Part shown: in pieces, positions 9,776-43,562 of the stretch
Layout: the number at the start of each line of letters is the position of its first letter
Position numbering within the stretch: the first letter of the stretch is position 1
Assembly: GCA_016840165.1 (NCBI GenBank)
Contig: JAEOSU010000003.1
Location: forward strand, 1-43,562
Source: Promethearchaeota archaeon
GTDB lineage: Archaea > Asgardarchaeota > Lokiarchaeia > Sigyniarchaeales > SOKP01
Reading direction: 5' to 3'
DNA length: 43,562 nt
Notes under the pieces: model-generated
The model's input: only the letters and a program-made list of their open reading frames with translations
What the model was told of the DNA's origin: nothing
Databases searched by the model: none
Program-made: the position numbers and the translations under genes

Positions 9776-11932
9776 ATGATAAATATTCTTGGATTCTTTC
9801 CTTCAAACTCAAATTTTCTCATTGATCTAATATTACTCTGTGCTACCGCATTTATAGTTTTATTTCTCCCCACCTATCCAATATTCTTTCTACTAATTCC
9901 AAAAAAACAATTTAACTTTTTAGAAAAACTCGCTCTAACAATATGCGTAGATTTAGCATTTTATATTTTGATTGGTTATATTGCGAACTCTCTTGGGATC
10001 CCAATTACAGGTTTATTTTTTTATCTATCAATTTCAATCCTCTATATCTTTTTTATCCTATATTCTTTAATAAAAGATGTAAAAAATAAAGAAAAGTTCT
10101 TTATATCAAGTGAAAATGTTAACAATGAGAGGAAAAAGATTGAGTTAAAATTTTCTCTTGCTTCTTATGTGAAGAAGAAGGTCTCTTTACCTTCTCTTAT
10201 GCTTTTTATATTTCTAATATTATTATCTATTCTTCATAGTGTCCGATTTAGCTATTTCTATGGTACAGATGCGATGTATCACGTATTTTTAATAGATTGG
10301 ATATCCAAACTCAACTTTTTACCTGTAATACAATATTTTGGCTCTTTGGGGCTACATATTTTTGGTGCTGTTATTCATTTCTTTTCTAATATCGATGTGA
10401 TTCTAATAGGGAGGTACTTTCTTTTTTATACATATTTTGTATCCGCACTGATCTTTTATAATATCCTGATGAGAATTTTCAAAAATCGTAATATCGCCAT
10501 TTTGGGTATATTTTTATTAGAAAGCTCCTCCTTAGGATTTAGTGCAATTATGTATGAGTTTTGGCCAACAAATATTGCGACAATTCTTTCATTAGAAATA
10601 TTTTTTCTTCTATATGTTCGACTAAAAAATCTTATTAAGCCTATACGACCAGATAAGGCATCAATTTTTTCGAATATTATATTTATGTATATTATTATAG
10701 TCTTTCTTGGAGTAAGTGCGATTTTTACTCATTCATTAATTTCTATGATTTTTATAGTGTCATTTAGTTTCATATATTTAATATATTTCGTAAAGAATTA
10801 TCGTAGAGGGATAGATTTTTCAGTGTTGTGCATTATATTACTAATATTTTTAATTCTTTTTGGCGCGACAGATATTAGCCTTCATTGGCAGATAGCAGGT
10901 TTCTTTAGGCTTCCTTGGTATATCTTAGTTCTGGGAGCAGCAGCAGGAGTATTTATTGTTTTGTTTTATAGAAGAGGGATTAATTTTTCTTCTGGGCGCT
11001 TTGAATTGGTGATTACCGGTAAAAAATATAAGTATTATAAGATAATTGAGGATAAATACCTTTTTCCGATTCTCTATTCCTTAATTGTAGTTATAATTGC
11101 ATCATTTTGGTATTTGAACTTTTTTTTCTTAGATTTATATTTCTCAAAAATTTTCATATCAATTGAAAGTTTAATTTTTGTAGTTTTTTGTTATTGGGGC
11201 TTAGTTCTTTTTCAGAAGAAACCACGCGGTAAACCGCTCTATTTATGGTTTATAGGGTTATTAGTTATTTATTTAGCTGCACTTAGTCTCGACATATTTA
11301 TATTGCACGAATTTTGGTCAGGTCGCATTTTACTTCTTTTTTCTCCAGTAATAATAATTGGTTTTATGTCCTATCTCTATAAAATTATAAAGCTTAAATC
11401 AATTGGAAAATTTAAGATGAAGTTTTTTATTCTTTTCGTTGTATCTTTTTCATTTTTTGCTCAATATTCAGATTTATTAATTGATGTGGATGGAATTGAA
11501 TATAGCCTTTATCATAGGGAGGTTACGTCAATATATTGGTATGCAAAATACACTAATGATCGAAATTTAATCATTTGCGAGTTTGGTTTACCCTATGTCC
11601 TTTATTATTATGATTTCCCCTACGAAGAGAACAATAAAAGCCTGACTACCGCTGATATTATAATAATTAACCAAAATCCGTTAGGCTATTTTAAACCACA
11701 AGATCACTTCTATGAAAACGGAACTAATAAATTACAGCAAAAGAAAGCAGAATTAAACACAGACATCTTTCTGATTCTCGATGATAACTATTTAGTTTTT
11801 GGAACATGGGACGTATTTCAAAGATTAACCGAAGAAGAGATGCAAAGTTATTATTATATGAAGTATCTGAATCGAATAGCATCATGTAAGAGTGAAAATG
11901 GAATAGAGGTACCCTATTACTGGGTTATTTAA
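9776..11932 (+). CDS. Polytopic membrane protein, probable GT-C-fold glycosyltransferase
   Basis: Many hydrophobic segments, GTDAMYH in an early loop, soluble C-terminal domain (EVTSIYWYAKYT...IICE); lies in the glycosylation cluster. Confidence 0.55.
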   Translation: MINILGFFPSNSNFLIDLILLCATAFIVLFLPTYPIFFLLIPKKQFNFLEKLALTICVDLAFYILIGYIANSLGIPITGLFFYLSISILYIFFILYSLIKDVKNKEKFFISSENVNNERKKIELKFSLASYVKKKVSLPSLMLFIFLILLSILHSVRFSYFYGTDAMYHVFLIDWISKLNFLPVIQYFGSLGLHIFGAVIHFFSNIDVILIGRYFLFYTYFVSALIFYNILMRIFKNRNIAILGIFLLESSSLGFSAIMYEFWPTNIATILSLEIFFLLYVRLKNLIKPIRPDKASIFSNIIFMYIIIVFLGVSAIFTHSLISMIFIVSFSFIYLIYFVKNYRRGIDFSVLCIILLIFLILFGATDISLHWQIAGFFRLPWYILVLGAAAGVFIVLFYRRGINFSSGRFELVITGKKYKYYKIIEDKYLFPILYSLIVVIIASFWYLNFFFLDLYFSKIFISIESLIFVVFCYWGLVLFQKKPRGKPLYLWFIGLLVIYLAALSLDIFILHEFWSGRILLLFSPVIIIGFMSYLYKIIKLKSIGKFKMKFFILFVVSFSFFAQYSDLLIDVDGIEYSLYHREVTSIYWYAKYTNDRNLIICEFGLPYVLYYYDFPYEENNKSLTTADIIIINQNPLGYFKPQDHFYENGTNKLQQKKAELNTDIFLILDDNYLVFGTWDVFQRLTEEEMQSYYYMKYLNRIASCKSENGIEVPYYWVI

Positions 11933-12713
11933 TAATCTCAAACTCCTCGGAATCAGAATGAACAAATTTGTTTTTCAAGATCGCATCCTTTTCTCCAGTG
12001 ATGTGAAACATTTTAGGAATATAGCCTGAGTATCCTATTTTGTCATTTCTGCAAATAAAAGCACCTAATACACCTTCAATGTCATCAATTTTGTCTAACG
12101 CTTTTTGAATTGACTGTTCGACGTCATCTCCTTTCACAAGATTGCCAATTTTGGTAGCAGCTCCATCGGCGATGGTAGCATTATGAGCAAAAATAGTCAC
12201 CACGTCAGATTGCCCCAGACTTATCGCGTGACCGATTTTAGCAGAGCTAGATGCGATCCCCATAGGGCAATCCTTCTCCTCTACTAAAAAACCAATATTA
12301 AGTTGTAACTTATTTTCCCCAGCATAGAGCGCGATCTTCATTGATTTTTCAGAATCTATGGCAATTTCTCCACCATTTTCAACTAATGCTATTCTTGCTG
12401 GAGTAGGGTTTGCTTTTGAGCCTTTTTTCATCACTTCAAGCATAAGATCAGCAAAGGCACCTGCAACCGTAGCCATTGGTCCAACATCACATATTTGCGC
12501 GCCTTCTGTCATTAGATTAATGATTTTATGCTTGCTTTCCACTTCTATTGGACTAAAAGTGGTTTGGAATTCTTTATGCGTAGATATATATTTTTCTAAT
12601 ATTCTTCGGTGGATAGAGAATTCTTCTTTTGCGGTTGAAATCGCGTTTATCGACTCTGAAATTATTGTGATATCCGACTCTTTTTCAGTAAAATGCGATT
12701 TATATATTTTCAA
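11925..12713 (-). CDS. UPF0280 family (ApbE-like) protein
   Basis: GPMATVAGAFAD, VENGGEIA, GIASSSAKIGHAISLG, ADGAATKIGN. Confidence 0.9.
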   Translation of the reverse strand: MKIYKSHFTEKESDITIISESINAISTAKEEFSIHRRILEKYISTHKEFQTTFSPIEVESKHKIINLMTEGAQICDVGPMATVAGAFADLMLEVMKKGSKANPTPARIALVENGGEIAIDSEKSMKIALYAGENKLQLNIGFLVEEKDCPMGIASSSAKIGHAISLGQSDVVTIFAHNATIADGAATKIGNLVKGDDVEQSIQKALDKIDDIEGVLGAFICRNDKIGYSGYIPKMFHITGEKDAILKNKFVHSDSEEFEIIK

Positions 12714-12823
12714 CCTTAATACTCAATAAAAGTAATTCTATCTTAAACCTTGAGATTTATATTCAAATAAATATAAATACGGTAGATATTATTATTTATG
12801 CAAAAAGTCTATAAGAATCATAT

Positions 12824-13315
12824 ATGAAACAAATTAATTATGATAACATTATCTCTCAATTAAAGAAAGAGATAAATTCAGAGTGCGCAATAGCTAATTG
12901 CTATGGATTAATCCTGGGATCTAGAATTAAAGAATTTGCGAAAGGAAAGGTAATTCCTCAGAAAATTCTCTCTCTCATATCAAATTCTCATGATATAGCA
13001 AAAGAACTTAATTTAAATCGTATAAATTCATTTGCTATCGAAGCGCAAGAATATAATTATCTTTTTACATTTAACGAAGAATTAATACTCATCTCAAAAG
13101 TAGATTTAGATGTGAATCTCGCAAAATTTATGCCGAGCATCAGTGTGTTTCTAAAGAAATTGAGTGAAAGCATAAAGGATGTTGAGATAAATGAATTCTC
13201 GATTTTTGATTTTTCCAAGGAAATCAATAAAATTCAAGAGACTATAAAAGAAGAGAAAGGAAGAGATAAAAAGTATTCCATTATTAAAGATTTAGTTAAA
13301 TATATTTCGAATTAA
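12824..13315 (+). CDS. Roadblock/LC7 (MglB-like) domain protein
   Basis: Helix-AIANCYGLILGS-helix-beta-beta-beta-helix pattern; directly upstream of a small GTPase gene. Confidence 0.6.
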   Translation: MKQINYDNIISQLKKEINSECAIANCYGLILGSRIKEFAKGKVIPQKILSLISNSHDIAKELNLNRINSFAIEAQEYNYLFTFNEELILISKVDLDVNLAKFMPSISVFLKKLSESIKDVEINEFSIFDFSKEINKIQETIKEEKGRDKKYSIIKDLVKYISN

Positions 13316-13348
13316 GAAACATAGGGTTGAGACATTATTTTAAGGCAA

Positions 13349-15469
13349 GTGTATATCTATAGGGGAAATAAATTACTCTACTATCGGCATTTTGGAAAAG
13401 CATTAAAATCTGAAGTTTTTGATTCCTTACTTCAGGACCTCAAGCATGATGCATTCAGTAAAAGTGGAAATAAAGTAGAATATCATGATTATTACAAATA
13501 TCGAATTTCCTATATTTCCGTTAAGGATTCTGAATTATTATTTTTATTTGTAACTGGTCTAACGGATAATTTTGACAATATTAAAAAAGAATTAATAAAG
13601 TGTAAAAAAGAATTTCTGAATTTATTTGAAGATATAATTCAACATAAATATGATGCTAAAACTTTTGAAGTATTTGATCCTACCATCGATTCCATCCATA
13701 GAAATTTACGTCCTAAAATCTCATTAGTTGGTTTTTCAGGAGTTGGAAAAACAACAATAACTCGCTTAATCAAAGCAGAGGAAATTCCAATGCAACACAT
13801 TCCAACTATCACAGGAGATATTGCTACCATCAAGATTGGCAAATTACATTTCCATCTTTGGGATTTCGCGGGTCAAGAGCAATTTAGTTATCTTTGGAAC
13901 AATTTTATAAAAGGGAGTGATGCAGTACTCCTAATTTCGGACTCTTCATTAGAAAACGTGGAAAAAAGCAAGTTTTTCCTGGAACTCATTAAAGAACAAG
14001 CACCAAATGCCCATACTGCAATTATTGGCAATAAACAAGATCTAGAAGAATCAATGAAACCCGAGCAAATAGAAAAGATTTTAGGACTAAAAACCTATTC
14101 TATGATTGCGAAAAACTCTGATAATCGTGATAAAATGATACAGATTGTAGCTGACGTTTTGGAAATGAGTGCTGAGGTATCACCTCTTCTTAAACCTTTA
14201 TTAAAAAGAGATACTTTTATAGAAGAAGCTACTCAGGCACTACAGAATGCAGAATTTGAAAAATCAGCTACTCTCTTTGAAAAGATAAGTGACTTATGTA
14301 TAGAATTGGGGGATGATTCTTTAGGACGCGAATTCTATGAAAAATCACAAAAAATCCTTTCTATGTTAAAAAAAGTAAGTGCTCCTTCTGCTGAACCTAA
14401 AGTAAAAGAACAACCTAAAGAAGAGAAGGTAATACCTCAACCTGAAATTGAAAAGAAACCTGTTCCTTCTGAAAAGGAAGATGTCAAAGAGAAAAAAGAA
14501 GTTCCAAAGGTAAAAACAGTAAAATTACCAGATGTTCCTCCGCTTCCGCCGAAATCAACTCCAAAAGTTCAAGTTCAAGAAAGTAATAACAAAATTACCC
14601 CATCAAAAAAGGCTGAGCCCTCAACTTCGGATGTTCCTGAAAAGTCAATATCTTTGATAAAAGAAACCACGTTCAAGAAAATTGACAGTGCTATCGAAGA
14701 AACTAATAAAATTAAAAAGGAAGTCGAATTAAAGCAAGCCCCGGAGCCAGTCGGGTTAGAATTAGATCCTGAGGATTTTATGGTGAAACCACGACCAAAA
14801 ACTGTCACTGCTGTTCCTAAAGATGCGAAACAGAAATTGAAAACATCACCATATGCTCATGTTACTAATACAGAAAAACCTAAGAAACCTGTTCCAATAA
14901 ATCCAGTTGATTTAATAAAACCAAAATCATTTATTCCACCTAAAACTCAAGGGATTCCTTCAACTCAAGCTTCTCCTAAAACACCGAAGTTATCTGAAGG
15001 TGAATTAAAGACATCACCATTCAGCTCAAAAAGTTCATTTAAAGCACCAGTACCACCTCCAATAACTTCCTCACCGAAATCAACCCCACCTAAGGAAATT
15101 TTTAGTCCAAAACCAGAAATAAAAACTCCACAAGTATCTATACCTATTGATCCGAAGAGTAAACCCAGTATTATCAGTACTGAACCAAAAAAGGAACCAG
15201 AAACTCTTACAGAAGCTAAATTAGAAGCACCAGTCTCTGAAGGAGGAAAAGATTTGTTAGATTCAAAGCAAAGGGCAGAACTTGAGAAATCGTTGATGGA
15301 TTTAAAAGTTAAAAAATCGAATGTTACGAAAATGGCTTTAGATTTAGATATGAAAGAATTAACCGGTGAAATTACTCCTGGAGAACTTGAGGAAAAGAAA
15401 ACGAAGCTCGAAAAAATAGAAAAATCCATTAACAAACAAATACAAGATATAGAACAAATGTTAAATTAA
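13349..15469 (+). CDS. Longin-like domain + small GTPase (Arf/Rag-like) + helical hairpin + Pro/Lys-rich linker + C-terminal coiled coil
   Basis: G1 GFSGVGKTT, G2 PTI, G3 WDFAGQ, G4 NKQD; N-terminal ~120 aa with a longin pattern (YIYRGNKLLYYRHF...LLFLFVTGLTD..helix). The true start may be an in-frame ATT at 13334 or 13337. Confidence 0.85.
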   Translation: MYIYRGNKLLYYRHFGKALKSEVFDSLLQDLKHDAFSKSGNKVEYHDYYKYRISYISVKDSELLFLFVTGLTDNFDNIKKELIKCKKEFLNLFEDIIQHKYDAKTFEVFDPTIDSIHRNLRPKISLVGFSGVGKTTITRLIKAEEIPMQHIPTITGDIATIKIGKLHFHLWDFAGQEQFSYLWNNFIKGSDAVLLISDSSLENVEKSKFFLELIKEQAPNAHTAIIGNKQDLEESMKPEQIEKILGLKTYSMIAKNSDNRDKMIQIVADVLEMSAEVSPLLKPLLKRDTFIEEATQALQNAEFEKSATLFEKISDLCIELGDDSLGREFYEKSQKILSMLKKVSAPSAEPKVKEQPKEEKVIPQPEIEKKPVPSEKEDVKEKKEVPKVKTVKLPDVPPLPPKSTPKVQVQESNNKITPSKKAEPSTSDVPEKSISLIKETTFKKIDSAIEETNKIKKEVELKQAPEPVGLELDPEDFMVKPRPKTVTAVPKDAKQKLKTSPYAHVTNTEKPKKPVPINPVDLIKPKSFIPPKTQGIPSTQASPKTPKLSEGELKTSPFSSKSSFKAPVPPPITSSPKSTPPKEIFSPKPEIKTPQVSIPIDPKSKPSIISTEPKKEPETLTEAKLEAPVSEGGKDLLDSKQRAELEKSLMDLKVKKSNVTKMALDLDMKELTGEITPGELEEKKTKLEKIEKSINKQIQDIEQMLN

Positions 15470-15582
15470 CTCTTTTTAATACCCTTTTATCTTACTGAGA
15501 CCATATTAAGATAAAAAATATTTATACGATTAAACCTTTAAAAGATTTAAAGTTAAGCGTTTATAAATCATGAGAGGTATAA

Positions 15583-17022
15583 GTGATGAGCCTAGTAATT
15601 ATGAAGTTTGGAGGAAGTTGCTTAGTCAATAATCACGCATTTAACAAGATTCATGAGATTACCCAACTTTATCAAAATGATCAAAAAATCTACGTATCCT
15701 CTGCGTTTAATGGAATTACCGATCTTCTTTTAAAATTGGCAAAAAACGCCAAAAAATCAATAGATATTGATAAGGATATGGCGTTGTTAGAGAAACGACA
15801 TTTTGACATTATTGAACAAGTATTTAACGAAGAAAGCGATTTTTATATAGCAGCAAAGGACTGGGTGGATGAAAACTTAAGCAGATTAGAAGATATCCTA
15901 GCAGACATTCAAGAATTTGGCTTCGAACCTTATTATCAGGCCAAAGTTATAAGTTTCGGAGAGATTTTATCCACGTATATTCTAAACCAATTTTTACTGA
16001 GTAAAGGCTATGATTCCATATATATCCCCGCAAATGAAATTATCATTACCAATGATGAATATAATAATGCTTATCCATATTTTGATTTAACTACCTCTCG
16101 TATGGCCAAATTAATCGCACCTATTTTAGAAAAACCGAATAAAAACTTGATTATTTGTATAACCGGATTTATTGGAAGGAATAAAATTGGATACACTACA
16201 ACATTAGGAAGAGGTGGTTCTGATTACTCAGCAACAATTTTAGCGCGATCTTTATCGGAAATCGGGATCCATCGAGATATTCGAGTTATTTTATGGAAAG
16301 ATGTAGATGGGATTTTAGCCATCGATCCTGAATTTGTACCCGAATCCTCGCTTATCCGGTATTTGGATTATGATGAAGCTAAGCATATAGCCAATTTTGG
16401 GGCAAAAGTACTCCATCCAAAATGTTTGGAAGCAATAGAAAAGCTCAACATCCCTATAGAGATTCGTAATTTCAATAAGCCTACCGAAATATCTAATTTT
16501 ACAACTGTTTCTCCTAAATCAGACAAGAATCAAATCAAGGGGATTTCTACTATACAAGATGGCATTATCATAACAATTACATCCGGCAGTTTGGTTGACA
16601 TGCCTGGAATTTTAGCAAAGATCTTTAAAGTTATTAGTAAAAATAATATTAGCGTCTCTTTAGTTGCGCAAAGTGCTACCGAAATAAGTACATCATTTAT
16701 AGTAAAAAAAGAAGATGCCGATAAAGCAATTAACTCCTTGAAAAAATCAGAATACTTCTCTGAATTTTTCGAGATTAAATCTGAAGAAGTAGCAATTATC
16801 AATATAACAGGAGCGAAAGTGTTGGATAACCAAACCAAAGTTAAGATTTTTCAAGCATTTGCCAAAAAAGATATACAAGTAAAAGCCTTATCTCAAAGTA
16901 CTGATGAAATCAACTTTTCAATCGTGATTCAAAAAGAGAACCTCATGGACGCGGTAACCATCCTTCATGAGGATCTATTTGAGGATTTTGAGTCCTTAAA
17001 ATATAAGGAAAATAAGAATTAA
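15583..17022 (+). CDS. lysC: Aspartate kinase with C-terminal ACT domains
   Basis: MKFGGS, SFGEILS, TTLGRGGSDYSA, WKDVDG, FGAKVLHP; two ACT repeats. Confidence 0.92.
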   Translation: MMSLVIMKFGGSCLVNNHAFNKIHEITQLYQNDQKIYVSSAFNGITDLLLKLAKNAKKSIDIDKDMALLEKRHFDIIEQVFNEESDFYIAAKDWVDENLSRLEDILADIQEFGFEPYYQAKVISFGEILSTYILNQFLLSKGYDSIYIPANEIIITNDEYNNAYPYFDLTTSRMAKLIAPILEKPNKNLIICITGFIGRNKIGYTTTLGRGGSDYSATILARSLSEIGIHRDIRVILWKDVDGILAIDPEFVPESSLIRYLDYDEAKHIANFGAKVLHPKCLEAIEKLNIPIEIRNFNKPTEISNFTTVSPKSDKNQIKGISTIQDGIIITITSGSLVDMPGILAKIFKVISKNNISVSLVAQSATEISTSFIVKKEDADKAINSLKKSEYFSEFFEIKSEEVAIINITGAKVLDNQTKVKIFQAFAKKDIQVKALSQSTDEINFSIVIQKENLMDAVTILHEDLFEDFESLKYKENKN

Positions 17023-17057
17023 TTCCAAATAAGACGATATACCTATACTGGCACTAG

Positions 17058-17597
17058 CTAAGGAGTACGTGAATCAATAATTCGGCGTGTAAGTTCTGAG
17101 AATGCCTCATCCACATGGATACCTGTTTTTGCTGAGGTTTCAATGTAGATACTACCCTCTTTCTTCGCAAAAGCTTCTGCTTCCTTCCTATCTATCACCA
17201 TACCGACATCCTCAATTAAATCTACTTTATTTCCGATAAGCACGAAAGGGATATTTTCTCCAGCAAATTGTCTTATCTCGGTTAGCCATTTTCTTGTTTC
17301 AGTATATGTTTGTTCACGAGTTAAATCAAAAACTAATAAAGCTCCTGCTGCACCCTTGTAGAATGTAGATCGGATAAACTCGAATCTTTGTTGTCCGCCG
17401 ATATCCCAAATGGAAAGTGTTGCAATTTCACCCTGTCGAAATTCAACATCTTTGGTTAGTATGTCTACACCTACGGTGAGTTTATAATTTGCTGCAAATC
17501 GATTTTTGATAAATCGTTGGACTAAGCTTGTTTTTCCGACTGCAGCTGCACCAGTAAGCAATACTTTTAATTTAAAACTTGACATAGGGTACTTCAA
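17058..17597 (-). CDS. Rab-like small GTPase (likely start ATG at 17585)
   Basis: GAAAVGKTS, TVGVDI, IWDIGGQQRF, FYKGA, LVFDLT, GNKVD, ETSAK. Confidence 0.93.
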   Translation of the reverse strand: MKYPMSSFKLKVLLTGAAAVGKTSLVQRFIKNRFAANYKLTVGVDILTKDVEFRQGEIATLSIWDIGGQQRFEFIRSTFYKGAAGALLVFDLTREQTYTETRKWLTEIRQFAGENIPFVLIGNKVDLIEDVGMVIDRKEAEAFAKKEGSIYIETSAKTGIHVDEAFSELTRRIIDSRTP

Positions 17598-35860: not shown

Positions 35861-36319
35861 TTGAGGTTAAATTTGGTTAAAAATATTGAATTAAGTACCA
35901 AGTTAGATATGGAATTTGACGATCAAGCACCAGAAGCGCTTTTTGAGGCAATTATCAGCGATCTCCTAATCCCACGATATAAGGAAAATAAAGATTGGAA
36001 TTTAAGTCTAAATATTATTATCGAGGAGATGAATCGGTTAATTTCGAAATATGAATTAGATCCAAAGTTAAAATTAGGATTATTAAATCAAGTAGAAAAA
36101 CATTTAGATAAAGAAATTGAGGAGCTCACGGGTACTGCCAAAATAGAGATTCTATTCCTCAATATGGATGATTATGTCGAGGATATCAAGAAATTAATCA
36201 CTGCTGGTAAAGATAAACAACAATTACGACATGACATGGCACAATTGATTTTTCCACTAACAATCTTTGAATTAGGAGAACTATTTATCTTCTTAGGAAA
36301 ACGAGCTTTCTTAAAATAA
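35861..36319 (+). CDS. Hypothetical helical protein (likely start ATG at 35909)
   Basis: ORF with protein-like composition; no recognised motif. Confidence 0.65.
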   Translation: MRLNLVKNIELSTKLDMEFDDQAPEALFEAIISDLLIPRYKENKDWNLSLNIIIEEMNRLISKYELDPKLKLGLLNQVEKHLDKEIEELTGTAKIEILFLNMDDYVEDIKKLITAGKDKQQLRHDMAQLIFPLTIFELGELFIFLGKRAFLK

Positions 36320-36371: not shown

Positions 36372-37343
36372 CTATTTAAGGGTTGTAATAGGACGAGATT
36401 GAAGGGCATAAACTTTATCATTATCAATAGCCCATTCAATATCTTGGGGCAAAATTAGGTATTTCTCAAGTTGTAGGCCTAGAAGGTAGAGTTTTTTTAT
36501 ATAAGCATCATTTAATGAGCATTGACATCTGAGATCCTCATCCATGGTAATTAATTGAGTGGACGGGCTGTTGGGATTAGCTTTTGATAACTGTTCCTTT
36601 TCTCCTATAATCTTGCTTATAATAGTTCCATTAGATTTATCGAGAATTATTAGATCCGGATTAATTTTATTATTGGTAATGGCATCCCCTAAACCCCATG
36701 TAGAGTTTATTAACATCTGATCGCGATTGTTATTAATGACATTAGCAGTAAATAAGACACCTGAGCATTCGGAGAATACCATTTTCTGAATTACGATTGC
36801 GATTTCAATGTCTAATAGGGAGAGTTCTTTTCCCTTATTTCTAATATAAAGTATATATAACAATGCCTGAGGGGAGAATAAAGATGCCCAGCATTTTTTC
36901 AGTGAGTTGATGATATCTTGAAGATTTTTATTATTAAGAATGGTTTCCGCTTGTCCTGCAAAAGAAAATAGCTCTGAATCCTCGATATTAGCTGAGGATC
37001 TCACTGCGAGGGATAATTCATTGCCAAATTCTATCTTTAAATTTTGGTAGGCTTTTTTAAGTTCGAGGAAAACAGCTTGCGGTATTTCTGAATTTAGGAT
37101 ACAATCGGTAATAGTTTTTGAAAAAGTGAATACCTCATTTTTAGTATAATTCTGGGATAAAGAAGAAAGAATTTTATCATGGTACTTTGACTCCTTAATA
37201 AAAGTTTTGTAGGATTTTGTGTTTAAAATAAATCCCGGAGGAACATTTATTCCAAGATTTGCCATTGTTATGAGTTTGGAGCCCTTTCCACCATATAACT
37301 CATTATTACTGATGTTATTATGTATATTTGCTAGATATTTCAT
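36372..37343 (-). CDS. Stand-alone PEP/pyruvate-binding ATP-grasp domain (PPDK_N; phenylphosphate synthase beta-like)
   Basis: GGKG, VPPGF, AVRSSANIED..SFAGQ, IQKMV, SGVLFT, WGLGD, QDIEWA, LQSRPIT; stop follows at the domain boundary. Confidence 0.9.
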   Translation of the reverse strand: MKYLANIHNNISNNELYGGKGSKLITMANLGINVPPGFILNTKSYKTFIKESKYHDKILSSLSQNYTKNEVFTFSKTITDCILNSEIPQAVFLELKKAYQNLKIEFGNELSLAVRSSANIEDSELFSFAGQAETILNNKNLQDIINSLKKCWASLFSPQALLYILYIRNKGKELSLLDIEIAIVIQKMVFSECSGVLFTANVINNNRDQMLINSTWGLGDAITNNKINPDLIILDKSNGTIISKIIGEKEQLSKANPNSPSTQLITMDEDLRCQCSLNDAYIKKLYLLGLQLEKYLILPQDIEWAIDNDKVYALQSRPITTLK

Positions 37344-37368
37344 ATTTTTAGAATGAGAATTTTAATTT

Positions 37369-37725
37369 TTATGGATGTAAGTATAGAAAACCACGACTAT
37401 CTCCATCATGCTTAAGCGAAACTTTCTTTCCATTTAAATTTGAAGGATCTTTGAGTTTTAATTTAATCGCCATAATACAAGGAATTCCAAACTCTCGGGA
37501 AACAATAGCTAAATGAGATCCAGGTCCACCAGTAGTGCATATTGTACCAGCCAATTCTGATAAAATTGGACTTAGAGTGGTAATTCCCGCATCATCGACA
37601 ATACAAATTTTTCCAGAGGCGTTATCAAATAGAGCAATAACATCATCAATAGTTTTAATATAAACTGCTTCCCCAGATACCTCAGTTTTCGATGAACAAG
37701 AAAGTCCTTCACCAATCTTTTCCAT
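37369..37725 (-). CDS. Stand-alone phosphohistidine swivel (PEP-utilising mobile) domain
   Basis: TTGGPGSHLAIVSREFGIPC with His71. Confidence 0.9.
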   Translation of the reverse strand: MEKIGEGLSCSSKTEVSGEAVYIKTIDDVIALFDNASGKICIVDDAGITTLSPILSELAGTICTTGGPGSHLAIVSREFGIPCIMAIKLKLKDPSNLNGKKVSLKHDGDSRGFLYLHP

Positions 37726-37892
37726 GACTATGTTCTCTCGATTGTATTGATATGTGATAGATGAATTAGTTTTTAATTTTTTATATAATACTTAAATTTT
37801 TTCATTTGCTTCGATAGATGATTAAAACTTTATATTAAATTATATGCTTTATTGATATAACTTCATTAATTTAATTTTAGAGCTCGATAATA

Positions 37893-39050
37893 GTGAATAT
37901 TAAAGAAGCCAATGAATTAATCACTAAAGCATCAGAATTGGTTGATTATCAAGTATCTAAACGTGGTCTTCTAGAAAGCCAATTATTCCCAGTTACGGCT
38001 TATATCTGCGTGTCATTTTATAATGCCTATGATATGCTTTATGACGTGTTGAGTAGGGTTGCGAAAAAAACTACACCTGAGAAAATGGGTAAGGAAAGTA
38101 GAAAAATTCTTTCAGAAATTCATGCTTTAAGTATCTTTTATCTTCCCTTATATTACATGGTGGGACGGATGGGAGAGATTTCGAGAAAAAATGGTGATTC
38201 ACATTCAGAATCCGAGGATAAGAGAGAGCAAACTATGTTTATTCTTGACTTCTGGAATCGATTAGCTCGTTCCTATTTCCAAAATAACCAATTATCAGTT
38301 TATGATTCTAATAAGAAAAATGTAGCTCTCGACCAGCCAGATATCGACTGGGTTAAGGATAGAATTACCAATATTTCTGGTGATGAGGCAAAATCAATAA
38401 AAAGAACTATGGCTAATTTAGAAACCATCTCTTTTTTAGATGAATGTGAAGCACGAGCAAAAATATGTGATCATGGCCCCTATGACGTAAAAAATAATGA
38501 GATATTGGTATTTCGAGAAATTTCACATTTATATGCAGGAGGAAAGCCTCATTTTTCTTGGTCTGAAACGAAAGCAAAAGCGCCGTATCCCAATATTGCA
38601 TTTGTATATCGTTTAAAAGATGTGGAGACGACTTTTGATGATTTTGCTACACTTGAAACTAATCCTGGTGACTTTTCAGACCATATTACTGGAGTAGGTC
38701 TATTCACGAGAGATGGAAATACTGTTGAATCTATTGGTTTGGATGAACTTCCTGCTTTTAACGATTATGCAGTTCAAGCTAATAAGGAATTGTTTCTTAA
38801 ATTTTCAAAATGGGACAGAAAGCAACGCCTCATCGCAGGAGCGTACGCCTATTGTTACGGTTATGCAAGATATACCAATTTTGTGGGGATCACAGATGAG
38901 ATTAATTGGGATCTGACAGAAAGAACAATGCAAAAGTATATCCCAGAATTTATGGAATCTGATTTTGATCCTGGAATCCCACGCTTAATGAGAAGTAAGG
39001 CAAAAAAGAGAAGAGAGGGCCCATCACTTTATCTGTTGCCAGAGGATTAA
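37893..39050 (+). CDS. Uncharacterised protein, candidate substrate-binding subunit of the split dikinase
   Basis: 385-aa soluble ORF divergent from the His/ATP-grasp genes; motifs LESQLFPVTAY, DFW, R..ICDHGPY, FSWS, DFATL. Confidence 0.6.
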   Translation: MNIKEANELITKASELVDYQVSKRGLLESQLFPVTAYICVSFYNAYDMLYDVLSRVAKKTTPEKMGKESRKILSEIHALSIFYLPLYYMVGRMGEISRKNGDSHSESEDKREQTMFILDFWNRLARSYFQNNQLSVYDSNKKNVALDQPDIDWVKDRITNISGDEAKSIKRTMANLETISFLDECEARAKICDHGPYDVKNNEILVFREISHLYAGGKPHFSWSETKAKAPYPNIAFVYRLKDVETTFDDFATLETNPGDFSDHITGVGLFTRDGNTVESIGLDELPAFNDYAVQANKELFLKFSKWDRKQRLIAGAYAYCYGYARYTNFVGITDEINWDLTERTMQKYIPEFMESDFDPGIPRLMRSKAKKRREGPSLYLLPED

Positions 39051-39055
39051 ATAGG

Positions 39056-39976
39056 ATGGATAAAAAAGGTTTTTCTAGAAGATTAAATGGGTCTGATGAA
39101 TATCTTCATAACCCTACTAAGGAATTAAAATGGCGTGAGTCTTATTATTTTAACTGGGTGGATTTAGAAAACAAAATATCCGGTTTTTCTACAATAGGGA
39201 TTTTACCAAATGAAAAGCGTCGTGAATTTGTATTCTTCTTATTTTTAAAGGATAGAAATGAGACCTACTATAAAGAACCATTTTTAGATAAATTTGATGA
39301 AGATATCAATACGATGCTACGAGAGAAGAAACTTAGTTATGTCTTGATTGATCCTTTTAAAGAATGGCAAATCAATTATGTCTCAAGGAAATTGAGTTTT
39401 AATATCACCTTTGAGACCAGATTTCCCACCTATAATTTTGGAGTTGACTCTTCAGCTTCTTGGCACCAACATTTTGAGGCATCAGGGAAGATTTCTGGGG
39501 TTATAAATTTTAAGAATGGAAAAAGTATAAAAATTAGCGGTTATGGTCAAAGAGATAAAAGTTGGGGATATCGAGATTGGCATCAATTTGACAAATGGTA
39601 TGCGGGTCATTATCAATTTAAAAAGTGGGCATGTGCTTTTCGAAAAGATAAAATTAAACAGAAAATTGACCTCTCGGGACACATTTCTAATAAATCGGGC
39701 AATATACCTTTAAAAGAAGTCTCAATTGAAACTGAACTAGATAGAGATCAATTTAAGAGCCCTCTCTCAAGTATTTATAAAATAACGGATATAGATGATA
39801 ACCATTATAGGATTAAAGCTCAGAGAATTAAGAATAATTCTTTTATTCGCTTTGTGAGAGAGTTTGACGGAGGTTCCACTGAATTATTTGAACAAATGGT
39901 AATTATGGAAGATTTGGATACAGGGGAGATTGGGTCTGGTATGATGGAACATTTAAGAACAATACCAATTAAATAA
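39056..39976 (+). CDS. Lipocalin-like/tocopherol-cyclase/CrtC-like double beta-barrel protein
   Basis: WRESYYFNW, HFEASG, GYGQRDKSWGYRDW, terminal GSGMMEH. Confidence 0.65.
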   Translation: MDKKGFSRRLNGSDEYLHNPTKELKWRESYYFNWVDLENKISGFSTIGILPNEKRREFVFFLFLKDRNETYYKEPFLDKFDEDINTMLREKKLSYVLIDPFKEWQINYVSRKLSFNITFETRFPTYNFGVDSSASWHQHFEASGKISGVINFKNGKSIKISGYGQRDKSWGYRDWHQFDKWYAGHYQFKKWACAFRKDKIKQKIDLSGHISNKSGNIPLKEVSIETELDRDQFKSPLSSIYKITDIDDNHYRIKAQRIKNNSFIRFVREFDGGSTELFEQMVIMEDLDTGEIGSGMMEHLRTIPIK

Positions 39977-39989
39977 TTAATATAATAAG

Positions 39990-41654
39990 GTGATAAAAAT
40001 GGTAAAATTTAAACGAGGCCACCTCTATTATCCTGAAATTCCAATTCATGCTTTACTTGAAGATACTGCAAAAAGATTTCCTAATAGAAATGCTTTTGTT
40101 TATCCAAAGAAAATGACTTTTAAGGAGCTTAAAAGTAAAGTGGATATTTTTGCGTCTATATTGAATAATTTAGGGTTAAAAAAAGGAGATAGAGTCGCGT
40201 TATTCGGTCCAAATTCAATAGAATGGGAGATCTCTTTTTTTGGTTTAGAGAAAGTTGGAGCAATCTTAGTTCCAATGAATCCACAGTTTAAAGAAACGGA
40301 AGTAAAATATGAGTTGAATGATTCAGGTGTCGAAACGATTATTGTTTCCCACCATCTTTATTCCGTTGTAGCAACGGTTAGATCGCAAACTAACTTAAAA
40401 CATGTCATAATTATAGAGTCAGATAAAGAAAGTGTTATTAAATTACCAGAAGAGACATTAGGATGGAATCAGTTAATGAAAAATACCGCTTCAAATCCTC
40501 CAGAAGTAAGTTTTAATACTAAAGACGACCTTGCAGCTCTTGTATATACAAGTGGAACAACGGGGCTCCCTAAAGGTACAATGTTAACCCACTACAACAT
40601 TGTCTCCAATATTATTCAGATTTCTCAGATTTTTGAACTAAGTGAACTAGATGTTGCGATAATAGTACTCCCGCTTTATCACATCTATGGATTAAATGTA
40701 GGGATGAATCAAGCAGTTTGGTTAGGAGCCTCTCAAGTGGTAATTCCCCGATTTGAAGTAAAAGAATTCTGTGAATTAATTGAGAAATATCAAGTATCAT
40801 ATAGTTTATGCGTTCCACCTATTTTTTTAGCAGTTGTCAGACACCTTGAAGAACCTAACAATAAAGGATACGATTGGACAAATCTCAAAATTTTCAATAA
40901 TGGAGCGGCCCCAATACCTCTTGAACTTCTTGAAAGATTTGATAAACTTGCTAAGGAAAAATGTAATGCTCATGAAGTAACAGTTCAACATGGGTGGGGT
41001 TTAACTGAAGCCTCACCTGTAGTTGCAGTAAACCCAATGTATCGCCCCAAGATGGAATCACAAGGGACACTCATTCCCGATACCTTTCATAAAATTATTG
41101 ATTTAGAGTCAGGTAAAGAAGTAGCTAAACGAGGAGAACTGGGCGAATTAGTGATTAAAGGTCCGCAAGTTATGCTGGGCTATTGGAATAAACCAGAAGA
41201 TACTGAAAATGCTTTTTGGATTGATCCAACTACCAATGAAAAATGGTTAAGAACAGGGGATATGGCTTATATAGACGAGGAGGAATATGAACACCTCGCA
41301 GATCGCATCAAAGAGATGATTAAGTATAAGGGATGGAGTATTGCACCCGCTGAACTTGAAGATTTACTATATAAAAATCCCCACGTGTTTGATGCGGCGG
41401 TTATTGGCAAACCGTCCAAAGAATTAGATGTTGGACAAATACCAAAGGCATTTATTATGTTAAAGGAACAATCGAAAGGGAAGATTACTGAAAAAGAGAT
41501 CATGAATTGGGTAGCAGAACGGATTTCCGCATATAAAAAGATCCGAGAAGTTGAATTCGTCGATTCTATCCCAAAATCTGGTTCCGGCAAAATTTTGCGT
41601 AGAGAATTAGTGGAACTTGAGAAAAATAGATTTGATAGATCATTTAATGATTAG
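39990..41654 (+). CDS. Long-chain fatty acid/aryl-CoA ligase (ANL superfamily)
   Basis: YTSGTTGLPKG, LPLYH, GWGLTEASP, GPQVMLGYW, RTGD, DRIKEMIK, PKSGSGKILRR. Confidence 0.93.
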   Translation: MIKMVKFKRGHLYYPEIPIHALLEDTAKRFPNRNAFVYPKKMTFKELKSKVDIFASILNNLGLKKGDRVALFGPNSIEWEISFFGLEKVGAILVPMNPQFKETEVKYELNDSGVETIIVSHHLYSVVATVRSQTNLKHVIIIESDKESVIKLPEETLGWNQLMKNTASNPPEVSFNTKDDLAALVYTSGTTGLPKGTMLTHYNIVSNIIQISQIFELSELDVAIIVLPLYHIYGLNVGMNQAVWLGASQVVIPRFEVKEFCELIEKYQVSYSLCVPPIFLAVVRHLEEPNNKGYDWTNLKIFNNGAAPIPLELLERFDKLAKEKCNAHEVTVQHGWGLTEASPVVAVNPMYRPKMESQGTLIPDTFHKIIDLESGKEVAKRGELGELVIKGPQVMLGYWNKPEDTENAFWIDPTTNEKWLRTGDMAYIDEEEYEHLADRIKEMIKYKGWSIAPAELEDLLYKNPHVFDAAVIGKPSKELDVGQIPKAFIMLKEQSKGKITEKEIMNWVAERISAYKKIREVEFVDSIPKSGSGKILRRELVELEKNRFDRSFND

Positions 41655-41655: not shown

Positions 41656-43281
41656 TCATTGATTTAGGATATACTGATCATCAATGATATCAATTTGAAA
41701 AATTTTAGCATCTAACCAAGATTCGCAAGTTTTTTGACTTGTCCAAAGCCTAGTTCCATCCCACGTGATTCCAATTGTACCTTCTGCAGCAGGGTATATT
41801 TGACCTGCAATTGTGCCATTCATGTTCCACTTAGTAAGCATTAGTTCTTCACCACACCAGAAATGAGTACCTGTCCAGGTTATTCCTCCAACCGCGGAGC
41901 CCCCGACTAAATTAATCGTTTCGATGAGATTCATGGTTTTATTGAGTTTATATATGTGTTGAGCATCTGAAAAATAAATGAATGTCCCATCTGAAGCTAC
42001 TCCGATCACAGAATCTACTCCCATTGGAATATCATACACTGCGATAATGTCAATTAAATTGCTAGCATTAGGCTGAAATTTGTAAATCTTGTTCAAAACG
42101 ATATCATGAGTCCAAAAATGTTCACCATCGTAAGCCAGACCATTAGGATTTGGGATGATATCATTTCCAAACTGTTCTTTTGTCTCAGTAGTAAGATTGA
42201 TCTTTACAAAATCTTGGGAAGAACCCTTGATAAATGAACGGTGTTCGAACTTCCAAAGGCATCCATTTACATACTCAAGACTCCAATCAAATGTTGTCTC
42301 ATTCTCCAATTTCCTAATAATTTGACGTGTCTCATCTATATCCGGATAAACATACAAATAACGATCTTCAGGATCCCCGGGAACGTATCCTAATTTCCGT
42401 GGTTCTGGATTATCATAATCCAAGTAAGGGATTGGAACAGTTCCATTACCCAGTAAATCATTTCCAGAAGTAATATTTGTTGTTGTTGGATCCAAGATGA
42501 TTTGGGCGCCTACGTCTTTGAACTTATTTTCAATGATTGTTAGATTTGAATATAAATTTCCACTCACAGCAGTCCCCGTGTAATTAACAAAATAATTACT
42601 AAATATATCCACATTAGTAGCTTCCGAATAAATCGCAAAATTTCCCCCATTAAAGATATTAAAGCGAACCGTGATATTGGGATTAAAGTCTTCTAAAGAG
42701 AGATCATGATATCCATTATCATAAATTAAGCAGGATTCAATCAATAAAGTAGATCTAGAAGAATAGACTCCCTCTGCGTGAATCCATCTAATAATAGTGT
42801 GGGATATATTAAGTCTAGATCCTCCAGATTCGATTCCAATAAACGCAAATTCGATAATAGCATACATGAATACTGATGCGTTAGTATCCATGCAGTATAT
42901 TCCCCCCCAATCTCCATTGATGGGATCTTCCGCATCTGATGTGAACCAAATCTGCTTTTCGGGAGTCCCAATCGCAATTATATTCCCACCTGTCGAGGAA
43001 ATGCTCTTTCTACTCCCTCCCTTATAACCCCTATAATGTTCGAATTCTAAAAAAGTCCCGGGTAATATGGTCAGAGTCACGTTTTTTGGAATGACTACGC
43101 TATCTTTCACATGTATGAATCCTTGCCATGTGGTATCCTCACTTAGCATGCCGCCAACTATGGTCACCTCAGGACCAGATTTGGGGCCTTGAGATAATAT
43201 TAAAATGAGTGATATTGGAGTGATTAAAACAAGGACTAGTGTAAGTAATATTAAAATTTTCTTACGGGATGTTTCGTTCAA
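41656..43281 (-). CDS. Membrane-anchored surface protein: beta-helix domain + beta-propeller-like domain
   Basis: N-terminal TM segment; AIGTPEKQIWFTS..GDWGGI beta-helix motif; repeated GLAYDG/GVASDG/GITWTG/GITWDG blades. Confidence 0.75.
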   Translation of the reverse strand: MNETSRKKILILLTLVLVLITPISLILILSQGPKSGPEVTIVGGMLSEDTTWQGFIHVKDSVVIPKNVTLTILPGTFLEFEHYRGYKGGSRKSISSTGGNIIAIGTPEKQIWFTSDAEDPINGDWGGIYCMDTNASVFMYAIIEFAFIGIESGGSRLNISHTIIRWIHAEGVYSSRSTLLIESCLIYDNGYHDLSLEDFNPNITVRFNIFNGGNFAIYSEATNVDIFSNYFVNYTGTAVSGNLYSNLTIIENKFKDVGAQIILDPTTTNITSGNDLLGNGTVPIPYLDYDNPEPRKLGYVPGDPEDRYLYVYPDIDETRQIIRKLENETTFDWSLEYVNGCLWKFEHRSFIKGSSQDFVKINLTTETKEQFGNDIIPNPNGLAYDGEHFWTHDIVLNKIYKFQPNASNLIDIIAVYDIPMGVDSVIGVASDGTFIYFSDAQHIYKLNKTMNLIETINLVGGSAVGGITWTGTHFWCGEELMLTKWNMNGTIAGQIYPAAEGTIGITWDGTRLWTSQKTCESWLDAKIFQIDIIDDQYILNQ

Positions 43282-43482: not shown

Positions 43483-43562
43483 TTGTGCCAATGGTGTACT
43501 AAACATGGTGCCGGAAAGAAATGGTATATGAATTCCAAGAATTATCATGCGGATCAAATCTC
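43483..43562 (+). CDS. 5' end of a probable Fe-S (4Fe-4S ferredoxin-type) protein, truncated by the window edge
   Basis: TTG start giving MCQWCTKHGAGKKWYMNSKNY, which matches a CxxCxxHGxGKKWY N-terminus I recall from Fe-S proteins; not in the ORF track. Confidence 0.6.
   Translation, partial: MCQWCTKHGAGKKWYMNSKNYHADQI

What the first reader, a model, noticed from the sequence alone, without database searches (positions are those of the whole stretch)
36372..41654. Split dikinase-like system coupled to a lipocalin-like barrel and an acyl-CoA ligase
Seen: separate genes for a phospho-His swivel domain (118 aa) and an ATP-grasp domain (323 aa), 25 nt apart, in different frames and in reverse order relative to PEP synthase, with no pyruvate-binding TIM barrel in the window. 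They share a 167-bp divergent intergenic region with a tight three-gene run (gaps 5 and 13 nt): unknown 385-aa protein, beta-barrel protein, CoA ligase. Established: rifampin phosphotransferase, PigC and phenylphosphate synthase reuse ATP-grasp + His domains with a different acceptor domain to phosphorylate non-pyruvate substrates. Inference: a three-subunit phosphotransferase activating a hydrophobic hydroxyl or carbonyl compound (lipid, sterol, isoprenoid or phenolic), followed by barrel-catalysed elimination or hydration and CoA ligation, i.e. a possibly uncharacterised catabolic entry pathway.
Basis: partly seen in the sequence, partly recalled or inferred. Interest (0 to 1): 0.8.

Follow-up and report, generated by a model that had tools for sequence, protein, structure and literature searches.

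The report
Split dikinase kinase with phosphate lyase
This Asgard archaeon carries a conserved, unstudied gene module that most likely uses ATP and a three-protein phospho-histidine relay to phosphorylate a stubborn hydroxyl group on a greasy molecule, then expels the phosphate with a relative of the newly solved 25-phosphosteroid lyase. The neighbouring CoA ligase is only an occasional add-on.

Summary
The window is a whole contig of a Lokiarchaeia-type Asgard genome. It encodes intact, separate ATP-grasp (PPDK_N, 323 aa) and phospho-His swivel (118 aa, His71) genes. These sit head-to-head with a 385-aa protein without a Pfam family, a DUF7065 double-barrel protein and a FadD-like ligase.

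New here:
- The 385-aa protein gives a very confident model (pLDDT 96) with no match among solved structures. It occurs naturally fused to a swivel domain in Actinobacteria.
- The barrel protein is a homologue of 25-phosphosteroid lyase (profile E 4e-26; best Foldseek match, TM 0.72).
- The four genes stay together through rearrangements in several Asgard families and in a paralogous locus. Five near-complete congeners lack all of them, and one keeps a deletion scar.
- Actinobacterial clusters hold all five families.
- A second kinase-lyase pair, with a fused Rph-like dikinase, lies elsewhere in this genome.

The ligase is not a conserved partner in Asgard genomes; an Fe-S protein pair is, and its first codons close the window.

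Best reading: ATP-driven dehydration by a new kind of kinase plus a phosphate lyase; the substrate is unknown. The scan reached the same reading on another Asgard genome (e1-5460867).

The parts
36372..37343 (-). Stand-alone ATP-grasp (PPDK_N) subunit, 323 aa: the presumed ATP-dependent phosphoryl donor
   Evidence: PF01326, 261 bits, profile positions 2-312 of 328. Best NCBIfam matches are PEP synthase, Rph and PigC N-terminal domains. Canonical motifs are intact. Orthologues of 42-61% identity are kept as separate genes in other genomes.
37369..37725 (-). Stand-alone phospho-histidine swivel domain, 118 aa (His71 codon at 37513-37515): the presumed mobile phospho-carrier
   Evidence: PF00391, 40.5 bits. 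The TTGGPGSHLAIVSRE motif holds His71. Orthologues are 65-83% identical. The same domain is fused to the 385-aa family in Actinobacteria.
37726..37892 (.). 167-bp AT-rich divergent intergenic region between the kinase genes and the acceptor/lyase operon
   Evidence: Read directly. TATA-like TTTATATAAT and CTTTATATTAAA stretches are present. Promoters were not tested.
37893..39050 (+). 385-aa protein of an unannotated family with no detected structural relative: the presumed substrate-binding / phospho-acceptor subunit
   Evidence: No Pfam or NCBIfam family. 206 representative clusters in the library. AlphaFold pLDDT 96.4, pTM 0.94. No PDB match (Foldseek best E 0.095; VIA best Z 4.7). Conserved R24, R92, R188 and G195-P196-Y197. 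Natural fusions to a swivel domain.
39056..39976 (+). DUF7065 double beta-barrel protein, 306 aa: homologue of 25-phosphosteroid lyase and presumed phosphate-eliminating C-O lyase
   Evidence: PF23213, 61 bits. A family profile hits PDB 9fzn/9g2i/9g4c at E 4e-26, with shared GxRDxSWGxR and GExGxGM motifs. AlphaFold pLDDT 91.3. The best Foldseek matches are the 25-PSL entries, E 2e-12, TM 0.72.
39990..41654 (+). FadD-like acyl-CoA ligase, 554 aa: a lineage-specific, facultative neighbour of the module
   Evidence: AMP-binding plus AMP-binding_C. Closest solved structure is A. fulgidus FadD-1, 3g7s, E 8e-121. Adjacent in G000, G007, G016 and G024 only. Orthologues are unlinked from the module or present without it elsewhere.
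43483..43562 (+). First 26 codons of the conserved 289-aa multi-cluster Fe-S protein gene, cut by the contig end
   Evidence: 73% identity to residues 1-22 of the Fe-S protein that follows DUF7065 in related loci. The sequence was read. The Fe-S289 plus Fd92 pair is linked to the module in Asgard families f1, f11 and f17.

Best explanation
The core is a four-gene module for ATP-driven removal of a hydroxyl group.

Proposed steps:
1. The free ATP-grasp protein uses ATP to load phosphate onto His71 of the free swivel protein. By analogy with PEP synthase this is dikinase chemistry, giving AMP and Pi.
2. The swivel protein docks on the 385-aa subunit. This subunit replaces the pyruvate-binding barrel of PEP synthase or the rifampin-binding domain of Rph, and it holds the substrate. 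The phosphate moves to a poorly reactive hydroxyl, probably tertiary, on a hydrophobic and probably isoprenoid-like compound.
3. The DUF7065 double-barrel protein, a homologue of 25-phosphosteroid lyase, expels the phosphate and leaves a C=C bond.

A conserved Fe-S protein pair probably handles a following redox step. In this lineage a FadD-like ligase has been placed behind the lyase and may activate a carboxylate on the product, but it is not an obligate part.

Shown here: domain identities, intact motifs, conserved linkage, natural fusions, co-loss, and homology to 25-PSL.
Inferred: the phosphoryl path, the AMP + Pi stoichiometry, the substrate class and the alkene product.
For: - Domains and motifs are intact.
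- Linkage in the genus: swivel, the 385-aa gene and DUF7065 are adjacent in 9 of 9 congeneric loci. The same set recurs in a paralogous locus with 455-aa relatives of about 33% identity.
- Linkage in the phylum: the set persists in other Asgard families at about 40% identity, although the Fe-S pair has moved to the other side of the kinase genes.
- Natural swivel-385 fusions exist in Gordonia and other bacteria.
- Actinobacterial clusters of six genera hold three swivel-385 fusions, an Rv3169-family DUF7065 protein, an AMP ligase and a PPDK_N-swivel protein.
- Co-loss: five 98-100% complete congeners lack the 385-aa, swivel and DUF7065 genes together. In G018 the syntenic site keeps abutting remnants of the PPDK_N and DUF7065 3' ends.
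- DUF7065 is related to 25-PSL by profile (E 4e-26) and by fold.
- Both PF23213 genes of this genome lie next to dikinase-type kinases. The second pair, a fused 908-aa Rph-like protein followed by DUF7065/7064, is adjacent in 21 of 22 Asgard loci.
- Precedent: 25-HSK plus 25-PSL carry out ATP-dependent dehydration (PMC8449060, PMC11061730). A dikinase without an acceptor domain autophosphorylates its His (VadK, PMC13400623).
Against: - No biochemical data exist for any member.
- The 385-aa protein has no recognisable active site or structural relative, so its role as acceptor rests on context and fusions only.
- The window's own DUF7065 protein is too diverged to hit 25-PSL by single-sequence search. 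Structural-alignment identity is only 14-15%.
- The same fold also houses hydratases and pericyclases.
- In two loci (G017, G021) no PPDK_N lies next to the swivel gene.
- The role of the Fe-S pair is unexplained.
- The known partner of 25-PSL is an APH-like kinase, not a dikinase (PMC8449060).
Confidence: 0.6

Rival explanations
1. The phospho-His relay makes an enol phosphate or aryl phosphate, as phenylphosphate synthase or PEP synthase do. The barrel protein then acts as a hydratase, cyclase or carboxylase rather than a phosphate lyase. The resulting acid is then CoA-activated.
For: - A split ATP-binding subunit and a non-pyruvate acceptor recall phenylphosphate synthase (established knowledge).
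- The barrel fold also matches kievitone hydratase, AttH and fungal pericyclases.
- An AMP ligase is adjacent here and in the actinobacterial clusters.
- Acetoacetate-decarboxylase-family and GlcD/GlcF-like genes flank the paralogous locus.
Against: - The best sequence and fold matches of the barrel protein are 25-PSL, with a shared GxRDxSWGxR motif.
- No UbiD-type or other carboxylase is in the module.
- The ligase is not conserved with the module in Asgard genomes.
- The swivel protein scores only 29 bits against the PRK08296 models (cut-off 578).
Confidence: 0.17
2. The ATP-grasp and swivel proteins form a regulatory histidine kinase of the VadK kind. It phosphorylates or controls a protein partner (the 385-aa protein) rather than a small molecule.
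For: - VadK, a truncated PPDK, autophosphorylates His422 and is proposed to regulate methylcitrate-cycle enzymes (PMC13400623).
- The actinobacterial clusters contain a protein of the same NCBIfam family (NF004531, 680 bits against a cut-off of 456).
Against: - The module is tightly and repeatedly paired with a lyase homologue that needs a phosphorylated small molecule.
- Swivel domains are fused directly to the 385-aa family, as in enzymes of this superfamily.
- The window's ATP-grasp protein is of the PEP-synthase/Rph type, not the VadK/PPDK type.
Confidence: 0.1
3. The genes are chance neighbours, or the two small genes are decayed fragments of a normal PEP synthase gene.
For: - The two small genes together cover only the first two domains of PEP synthase.
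- The ligase adjacency is indeed lineage-specific.
Against: - Both small genes are intact, with conserved motifs, and are kept as separate genes in dozens of genomes from several Asgard families.
- The genome has a complete PEP synthase and a PPDK elsewhere.
- Gene order is swivel-first, so one frameshift cannot explain it.
- Fusions and co-loss argue against chance.
Confidence: 0.02

Closest known systems
25-hydroxysteroid kinase (25-HSK) plus 25-phosphosteroid lyase (25-PSL) of Sterolibacterium denitrificans (PMC8449060, PMC11061730; PDB 9fzn, 9g2i, 9g4c)
   Same: The logic is two steps: phosphorylate an unreactive (tertiary) hydroxyl with ATP, then eliminate phosphate to give an alkene. The window's DUF7065 protein is a homologue of 25-PSL (profile E 4e-26; Foldseek TM 0.72).
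   Different: - The kinase is unrelated. 25-HSK is described as a single-chain enzyme whose relatives are annotated as phosphotransferase-family proteins (PMC8449060). Here the kinase is a three-protein phospho-His relay of the dikinase type with a new acceptor subunit.
- Here kinase and lyase genes are adjacent. In S. denitrificans no lyase candidate lies near the kinase gene (PMC8449060).
- The host is an archaeon and the substrate is unknown.
Rifampin phosphotransferase, PigC and RedH (three-domain PRK06241-type enzymes)
   Same: An ATP-grasp domain plus a swivelling His domain pass phosphate to a non-pyruvate substrate held by a dedicated third domain. The window's ATP-grasp scores 210 bits on the Rph and PigC models.
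   Different: - Those enzymes are single chains ordered ATP-grasp, substrate domain, swivel.
- Here there are three separate genes, with the swivel gene first.
- The 385-aa subunit shows no profile or fold similarity to their middle domain.
Phenylphosphate synthase of Thauera aromatica (from established knowledge)
   Same: A multi-subunit dikinase-type enzyme with a separate ATP-binding subunit. It activates a hydroxyl group for a following C-O/C-C step, and a CoA ligase acts later in the pathway.
   Different: - Its His domain is part of the large alpha subunit.
- Its follow-up enzyme is a UbiD-type carboxylase, not a 25-PSL-like barrel.
- The window proteins are far below the PRK08296 cut-offs.
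VadK (Rv1127c), truncated PPDK of Mycobacterium tuberculosis (PMC13400623)
   Same: A dikinase ATP-grasp plus His domain without any PEP/pyruvate barrel, shown to autophosphorylate its His. A protein of the same NCBIfam family sits in the actinobacterial clusters that hold the 385-aa family and the Rv3169-family barrel.
   Different: - VadK is one chain of PPDK descent and is proposed to be a regulator.
- The window's proteins are two chains of the PEP-synthase/Rph type.
- No link between VadK and the 385-aa family or Rv3169 was found in the papers searched.
PEP synthase and pyruvate phosphate dikinase
   Same: The same ATP-grasp and swivel domains and the same catalytic motifs.
   Different: There is no PEP-utilizers_C barrel, the genes are split, and the domain order is reversed. 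The genome has true copies of both enzymes elsewhere.
AttH / CrtC / kievitone hydratase double-barrel fold
   Same: The DUF7065 model matches AttH (2ich) and kievitone hydratase (7a0t) at E 1e-8 to 1e-9. These enzymes act on prenyl-type C=C / tertiary alcohol ends.
   Different: They add water without ATP. The window's protein is closer to 25-PSL and is always paired with a kinase.

Membership tests
PEP synthase / PPDK | ATP-grasp nucleotide-binding domain (PPDK_N) | tested here: met
   PF01326, 261 bits. Motifs are intact.
PEP synthase / PPDK | Swivelling phospho-His domain with a catalytic His | tested here: met
   PF00391, 40.5 bits. His71 lies in GGxxSH.
PEP synthase / PPDK | PEP/pyruvate-binding TIM barrel (PEP-utilizers_C) in the same protein | tested here: not met
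   PF02896 is found only on contigs C92 and C101, not on this contig.
Rph / PigC type (PRK06241) | Single chain ordered ATP-grasp, middle substrate domain, C-terminal swivel | tested here: not met
   Here there are three genes with the swivel gene first. Scores are 210 bits against cut-offs of 999-1300.
Rph / PigC type (PRK06241) | Middle substrate-binding domain homologous to that of Rph | tested here: inconclusive
   hhalign of the 385-aa family against the genome's own 908-aa Rph-like protein gives probability 0.1. No Rph chain appears in the Foldseek or VIA lists.
Phenylphosphate synthase | Alpha subunit of the PRK08296 type carrying the His domain | tested here: not met
   Best PRK08296 score is 29 bits against a cut-off of 578, on the swivel region only.
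Phenylphosphate synthase | Linked UbiD-type phenylphosphate carboxylase | tested here: not met
   No such family appears among the ten ORFs of 32.3-43.3 kb or in the related loci scanned.
25-phosphosteroid lyase family (DUF7065/DUF7064, Rv3169-like) | Sequence homology to 25-PSL | tested here: met
   Profile A2 against 9fzn gives E 4.1e-26 and shares RDxSWGxR. The single-sequence search found nothing.
25-phosphosteroid lyase family (DUF7065/DUF7064, Rv3169-like) | Same double beta-barrel fold | tested here: met
   Foldseek ranks 1-5 are 25-PSL chains, E 2e-12, probability 1.00, TMq 0.72.
25-phosphosteroid lyase family (DUF7065/DUF7064, Rv3169-like) | Phosphate-binding and catalytic residues of 25-PSL are conserved; phosphate elimination activity | not testable with these tools
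   No coordinates and no paper on 9g2i/9g4c were available. Activity needs an assay.
25-HSK / 25-PSL pathway | Kinase of the 25-HSK type | not tested
   No 25-HSK sequence was compared here. The kinase genes next to this lyase homologue are PPDK_N and PEP-utilizers. 25-HSK is described as a single ~40-kDa protein whose relatives are annotated as phosphotransferase-family proteins (PMC8449060).
VadK-type truncated dikinase (NF004531) | Score above the family cut-off | tested here: not met
   The window's ATP-grasp scores 29.6 bits against a cut-off of 456. The Gordonia cluster protein scores 680.
Acyl-CoA ligase (ANL superfamily) | AMP-binding and AMP-binding_C domains | tested here: met
   301 and 64 bits. 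3g7s FadD-1 matches at E 8e-121.

The most novel reading that the evidence does not exclude
The 385-aa family is a previously unrecognised phospho-acceptor or catalytic domain with no detected structural relative. Together with a free or fused swivel His domain, an ATP-grasp donor of either the PEP-synthase or the PPDK/VadK type, and a 25-PSL-like lyase, it would define a widespread but undescribed enzyme class: dikinase-driven dehydratases. The family is found in Asgard archaea, Nitrososphaerota, Actinobacteria and some Proteobacteria. If true, this would also give a biochemical context to the Rv3169 family and to VadK-like truncated dikinases.
Probability: 0.45. Interest if true: 0.8.

Novelty: new variant of a known kind. 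Interest (0 to 1): 0.7.

Why it matters
ATP-dependent dehydration through a phosphoester is known from very few systems; the 25-HSK paper names only one other, NAD(P)HX repair. It is the way anaerobes attack unactivated tertiary alcohols.

This module would show that the lyase half of that chemistry is widespread. It would also show that the lyase has been coupled to a quite different, energetically stronger kinase (ATP to AMP + Pi). That fits the reported very high group-transfer potential of such phosphoesters (PMC8449060).

It would assign a role to an unannotated protein family with no detected structural relative, and to DUF7065/Rv3169 proteins.

The module also occurs in cultivable Gordonia, Nocardia and Rhodococcus. 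The question can therefore be tested at the bench without growing an Asgard archaeon.

Tried and rejected
Tools that gave nothing:
- The search for related loci with alignment A1 found no stretch conserved enough to search with.

Searches for relatives of the 385-aa protein that found nothing useful:
- PDB by sequence profile.
- Foldseek against PDB (best E 0.095).
- VIA-align wide (best Z 4.7).
- ESM Atlas.
- hhalign against the genome's own Rph-like 908-aa protein (probability 0.1).

Other negatives:
- The C-terminal extension of the 726-aa Burkholderia/Croceicoccus form is neither a second copy of the 385-aa family nor DUF7065.
- Literature: no paper holds 'DUF7065'. Rv3169 appears only in gene lists. 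No paper links a dikinase to ATP-dependent dehydration. One hit on 'dikinase' turned out to be SelD.

Ideas considered and set aside:
- I first thought 25-HSK itself might be of the dikinase type. The paper describes it as a single ~40-kDa kinase related to phosphotransferase-family proteins.
- Ketone carboxylation through an enol phosphate, prompted by ADC-family genes in the paralogous locus. It is kept only as a rival, because no carboxylase is linked.
- The ligase as a core member: rejected for Asgard genomes.
- The flanks of the high-GC actinobacterial loci were not annotated further, because ORF calling there was ambiguous.

Full report
**Observation**

The window is the whole of contig C53 of a 3.6-Mb, 99.7% complete Asgard genome. 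Close relatives of its proteins are labelled Promethearchaeota, Lokiarchaeia or Hodarchaeota.

Pfam gives these assignments:
- PPDK_N for the 323-aa protein.
- PEP-utilizers for the 118-aa protein.
- No family for the 385-aa protein.
- DUF7065 for the 306-aa protein.
- AMP-binding plus AMP-binding_C for the 554-aa protein.

His71 lies in a canonical GGxxSH motif, and the ATP-grasp protein keeps all its usual motifs. No PEP/pyruvate barrel is on this contig. The genome's two copies belong to a complete PEP synthase on C92 and a PPDK on C101. The small genes are therefore not the remains of the organism's ppsA.

**The 385-aa protein**

- It is strongly conserved: 72-88% identity and almost always exactly 385 residues in Lokiarchaeia-type metagenome bins.
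- An exhaustive HMMER search finds 206 representative clusters, 15 of them at E 1e-30 or better. Members carry names from Hermodarchaeota, Nitrososphaerota, Gordonia and Burkholderia.
- With a 64-sequence alignment, AlphaFold gives pLDDT 96.4 and pTM 0.94. The model has a helical bundle around a seven-stranded sheet.
- No match came from a PDB sequence profile, Foldseek (best E 0.095) or an all-against-representatives structural search (best Z 4.7). The ESM Atlas gave nothing. A missing match does not prove that the fold is new.
- Across Asgard orthologues, paralogues and bacterial fused forms, the conserved positions are R24, R92, R188 and G195-P196-Y197. Three conserved arginines would suit a phosphate site. 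This is inference.

**Fusions**

Two long members of the family carry an N-terminal PEP-utilizers swivel domain. They are P0165 (575 aa; its 90%-identity cluster holds Gordonia otitidis WP_007239118.1) and P0180 (516 aa). This is direct evidence that the family works with a phospho-His swivel domain.

**The barrel protein**

- A 23-sequence profile of the DUF7065 protein hits one thing in the PDB: 25-phosphosteroid lyase (9fzn, 9g2i, 9g4c), at E 4e-26. The two share a GxRDxSWGxR motif and a C-terminal GExGxGM motif. The single sequence alone finds nothing.
- The AlphaFold model (pLDDT 91.3) is all-beta.
- Its five best Foldseek matches are the 25-PSL chains (E 2e-12, TM 0.72). Next come fungal pericyclases, AttH and kievitone hydratase.
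- 25-PSL is the enzyme proposed to eliminate phosphate from 25-phospho-steroids and give the delta-24 alkene in anaerobic cholesterol degradation. Its kinase, 25-HSK, is a separate single-chain enzyme whose relatives are annotated as phosphotransferase-family proteins (PMC8449060, PMC11061730).

**Linkage within the genus**

- In nine orthologous loci, the swivel, 385-aa and DUF7065 genes are always adjacent. The ATP-grasp gene is adjacent in seven.
- Some genomes have a second, paralogous locus. It holds an ATP-grasp gene, a swivel gene, one or two 455-aa relatives (about 33% identity) and a DUF7065/7064 protein. Its neighbours are different: an MFS transporter, ADC-family proteins and GlcD/GlcF-like proteins.

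**Linkage across the phylum**

- The 385-aa family is found in 80 of 301 sampled Asgard genomes, in 7 of 30 families.
- In 16 distant loci a DUF7065 homologue follows it in most cases, and the split kinase genes are usually adjacent.
- A 289-aa multi-cluster Fe-S protein and a 92-aa ferredoxin-like protein accompany the module, but on either side of it. The association therefore survives rearrangement.
- In this window the Fe-S gene starts at 43483 and is cut by the contig end.

**Co-loss**

Five congeners that are 98-100% complete lack the 385-aa gene. In them I also found neither the stand-alone swivel gene nor the DUF7065 orthologue.

In G018 the syntenic site keeps a 44-residue remnant of the DUF7065 C-terminus next to a 43-residue remnant of the ATP-grasp C-terminus. 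The Fe-S pair there is intact. This looks like one deletion that removed the four genes. The module is thus a unit, and it is dispensable.

**Bacteria**

In 14 of 15 actinobacterial loci (Gordonia, Nocardia, Rhodococcus, Pseudonocardia, Geodermatophilus, a Streptosporangiaceae bin and others), two or three swivel-385 fusions lie with the following:
- An Rv3169-family DUF7065 protein (318 bits, cut-off 150).
- A LuxR regulator.
- An AMP ligase.
- A PPDK_N-swivel protein.

That last protein belongs to NF004531, the family of M. tuberculosis Rv1127c (VadK). VadK is a truncated PPDK shown to autophosphorylate His422 (PMC13400623).

The window's ATP-grasp protein is of the PEP-synthase/Rph type instead. 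Different ATP-grasp donors therefore seem to have been recruited to the same acceptor family.

In Croceicoccus a swivel gene precedes a long form of the family, beside a TonB receptor, an SDR and an acyl-CoA dehydrogenase.

**A second kinase-lyase pair**

On contig C96 of this genome, a 908-aa protein with Rph/PigC architecture (ATP-grasp, middle domain, C-terminal swivel) is followed after one base by a DUF7065/7064 protein. That pair is adjacent in 21 of 22 loci from three Asgard families. Both DUF7065 genes of this genome thus sit beside dikinase-type kinases.

**The ligase**

- It resembles Archaeoglobus FadD-1.
- It is adjacent to the module in only four congeners.
- Orthologues of 74-77% identity are present in three module-less genomes (G018, G012, G015) and are unlinked in G002 and G008.
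- G017, G013 and G021 have the module but only 39-40% paralogues or no match.
- It is therefore a lineage-specific addition in Asgard genomes. The separate AMP ligase in the actinobacterial clusters keeps a link to a carboxylate substrate possible.

**Mechanism and standing**

I read the core as an ATP-driven dehydration system. Phosphate passes from the ATP-grasp protein to His71 of the swivel protein, then to a hydroxyl of a substrate held on the 385-aa subunit. The 25-PSL-like barrel then eliminates it. The Fe-S pair would act afterwards.

The identities, linkage, fusions and homologies are shown. The phosphoryl path, stoichiometry, substrate and product are inferred.

The rivals are an enol- or aryl-phosphate route with a non-lyase barrel, a VadK-like regulatory kinase, and chance or decay. 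They are weighed in their own section.

No paper in the library describes this system. The scan had already reached the same reading on another Asgard genome (e1-5460867). I reached it independently.

Noticed in passing
G000 contig C96, locus L040:1654-5359 (-): A second kinase-lyase operon in the same genome. A 908-aa Rph/PigC-like fused dikinase (ATP-grasp, middle domain, C-terminal swivel) is followed after one base by a DUF7065+DUF7064 protein. The pair is adjacent in 21 of 22 Asgard loci from three families.
   Followed up: partly
window 43483-43562 (+): The start of a conserved 289-aa multi-cluster Fe-S protein gene is cut by the contig end. In related genomes this gene and a 92-aa ferredoxin-like gene always accompany the module, often with a CocE/S15-type hydrolase.
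   Followed up: partly
window 41656-43281 (-): A 541-aa right-handed beta-helix protein lies on the opposite strand between the ligase and the Fe-S gene. It was not found at that place in any of the other loci compared, so it looks like a local insertion.
   Followed up: no
L088 (G018:C36) 9824-10105: A deletion scar in a congener. A 44-residue remnant of the DUF7065 C-terminus abuts a 43-residue remnant of the ATP-grasp C-terminus, while the flanking 152-aa gene and the Fe-S pair are intact.
   Followed up: yes
L022 (G005:C43) 5383-17590; L024; L021; L087: A paralogous module with 455-aa relatives of the 385-aa protein, sometimes in tandem. It is flanked by an MFS transporter, two acetoacetate-decarboxylase-family proteins and a GlcD/GlcF-like FAD/CCG oxidoreductase pair. 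This hints at a hydroxy- or keto-acid substrate for that copy.
   Followed up: partly
L025-L039 (Gordonia, Nocardia, Rhodococcus, Pseudonocardia, Geodermatophilus): Actinobacterial clusters hold three swivel-385 fusions, an Rv3169-family barrel, a LuxR regulator, an AMP ligase and a VadK-family (NF004531) truncated dikinase. I found no described function for this cluster in the papers searched.
   Followed up: partly
L111 (Croceicoccus ponticola) 4350-11138: A swivel gene and a long (about 710-aa) form of the 385-aa family lie beside a TonB-dependent receptor, an SDR and an acyl-CoA dehydrogenase. The C-terminal half of the long form matches nothing tested.
   Followed up: partly
window 35861-36319 (+): A 152-aa protein without a family lies convergent with the ATP-grasp gene and is 74-92% identical in all congeneric loci. 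It was not found beside the module in other Asgard families, so it is probably only syntenic.
   Followed up: partly
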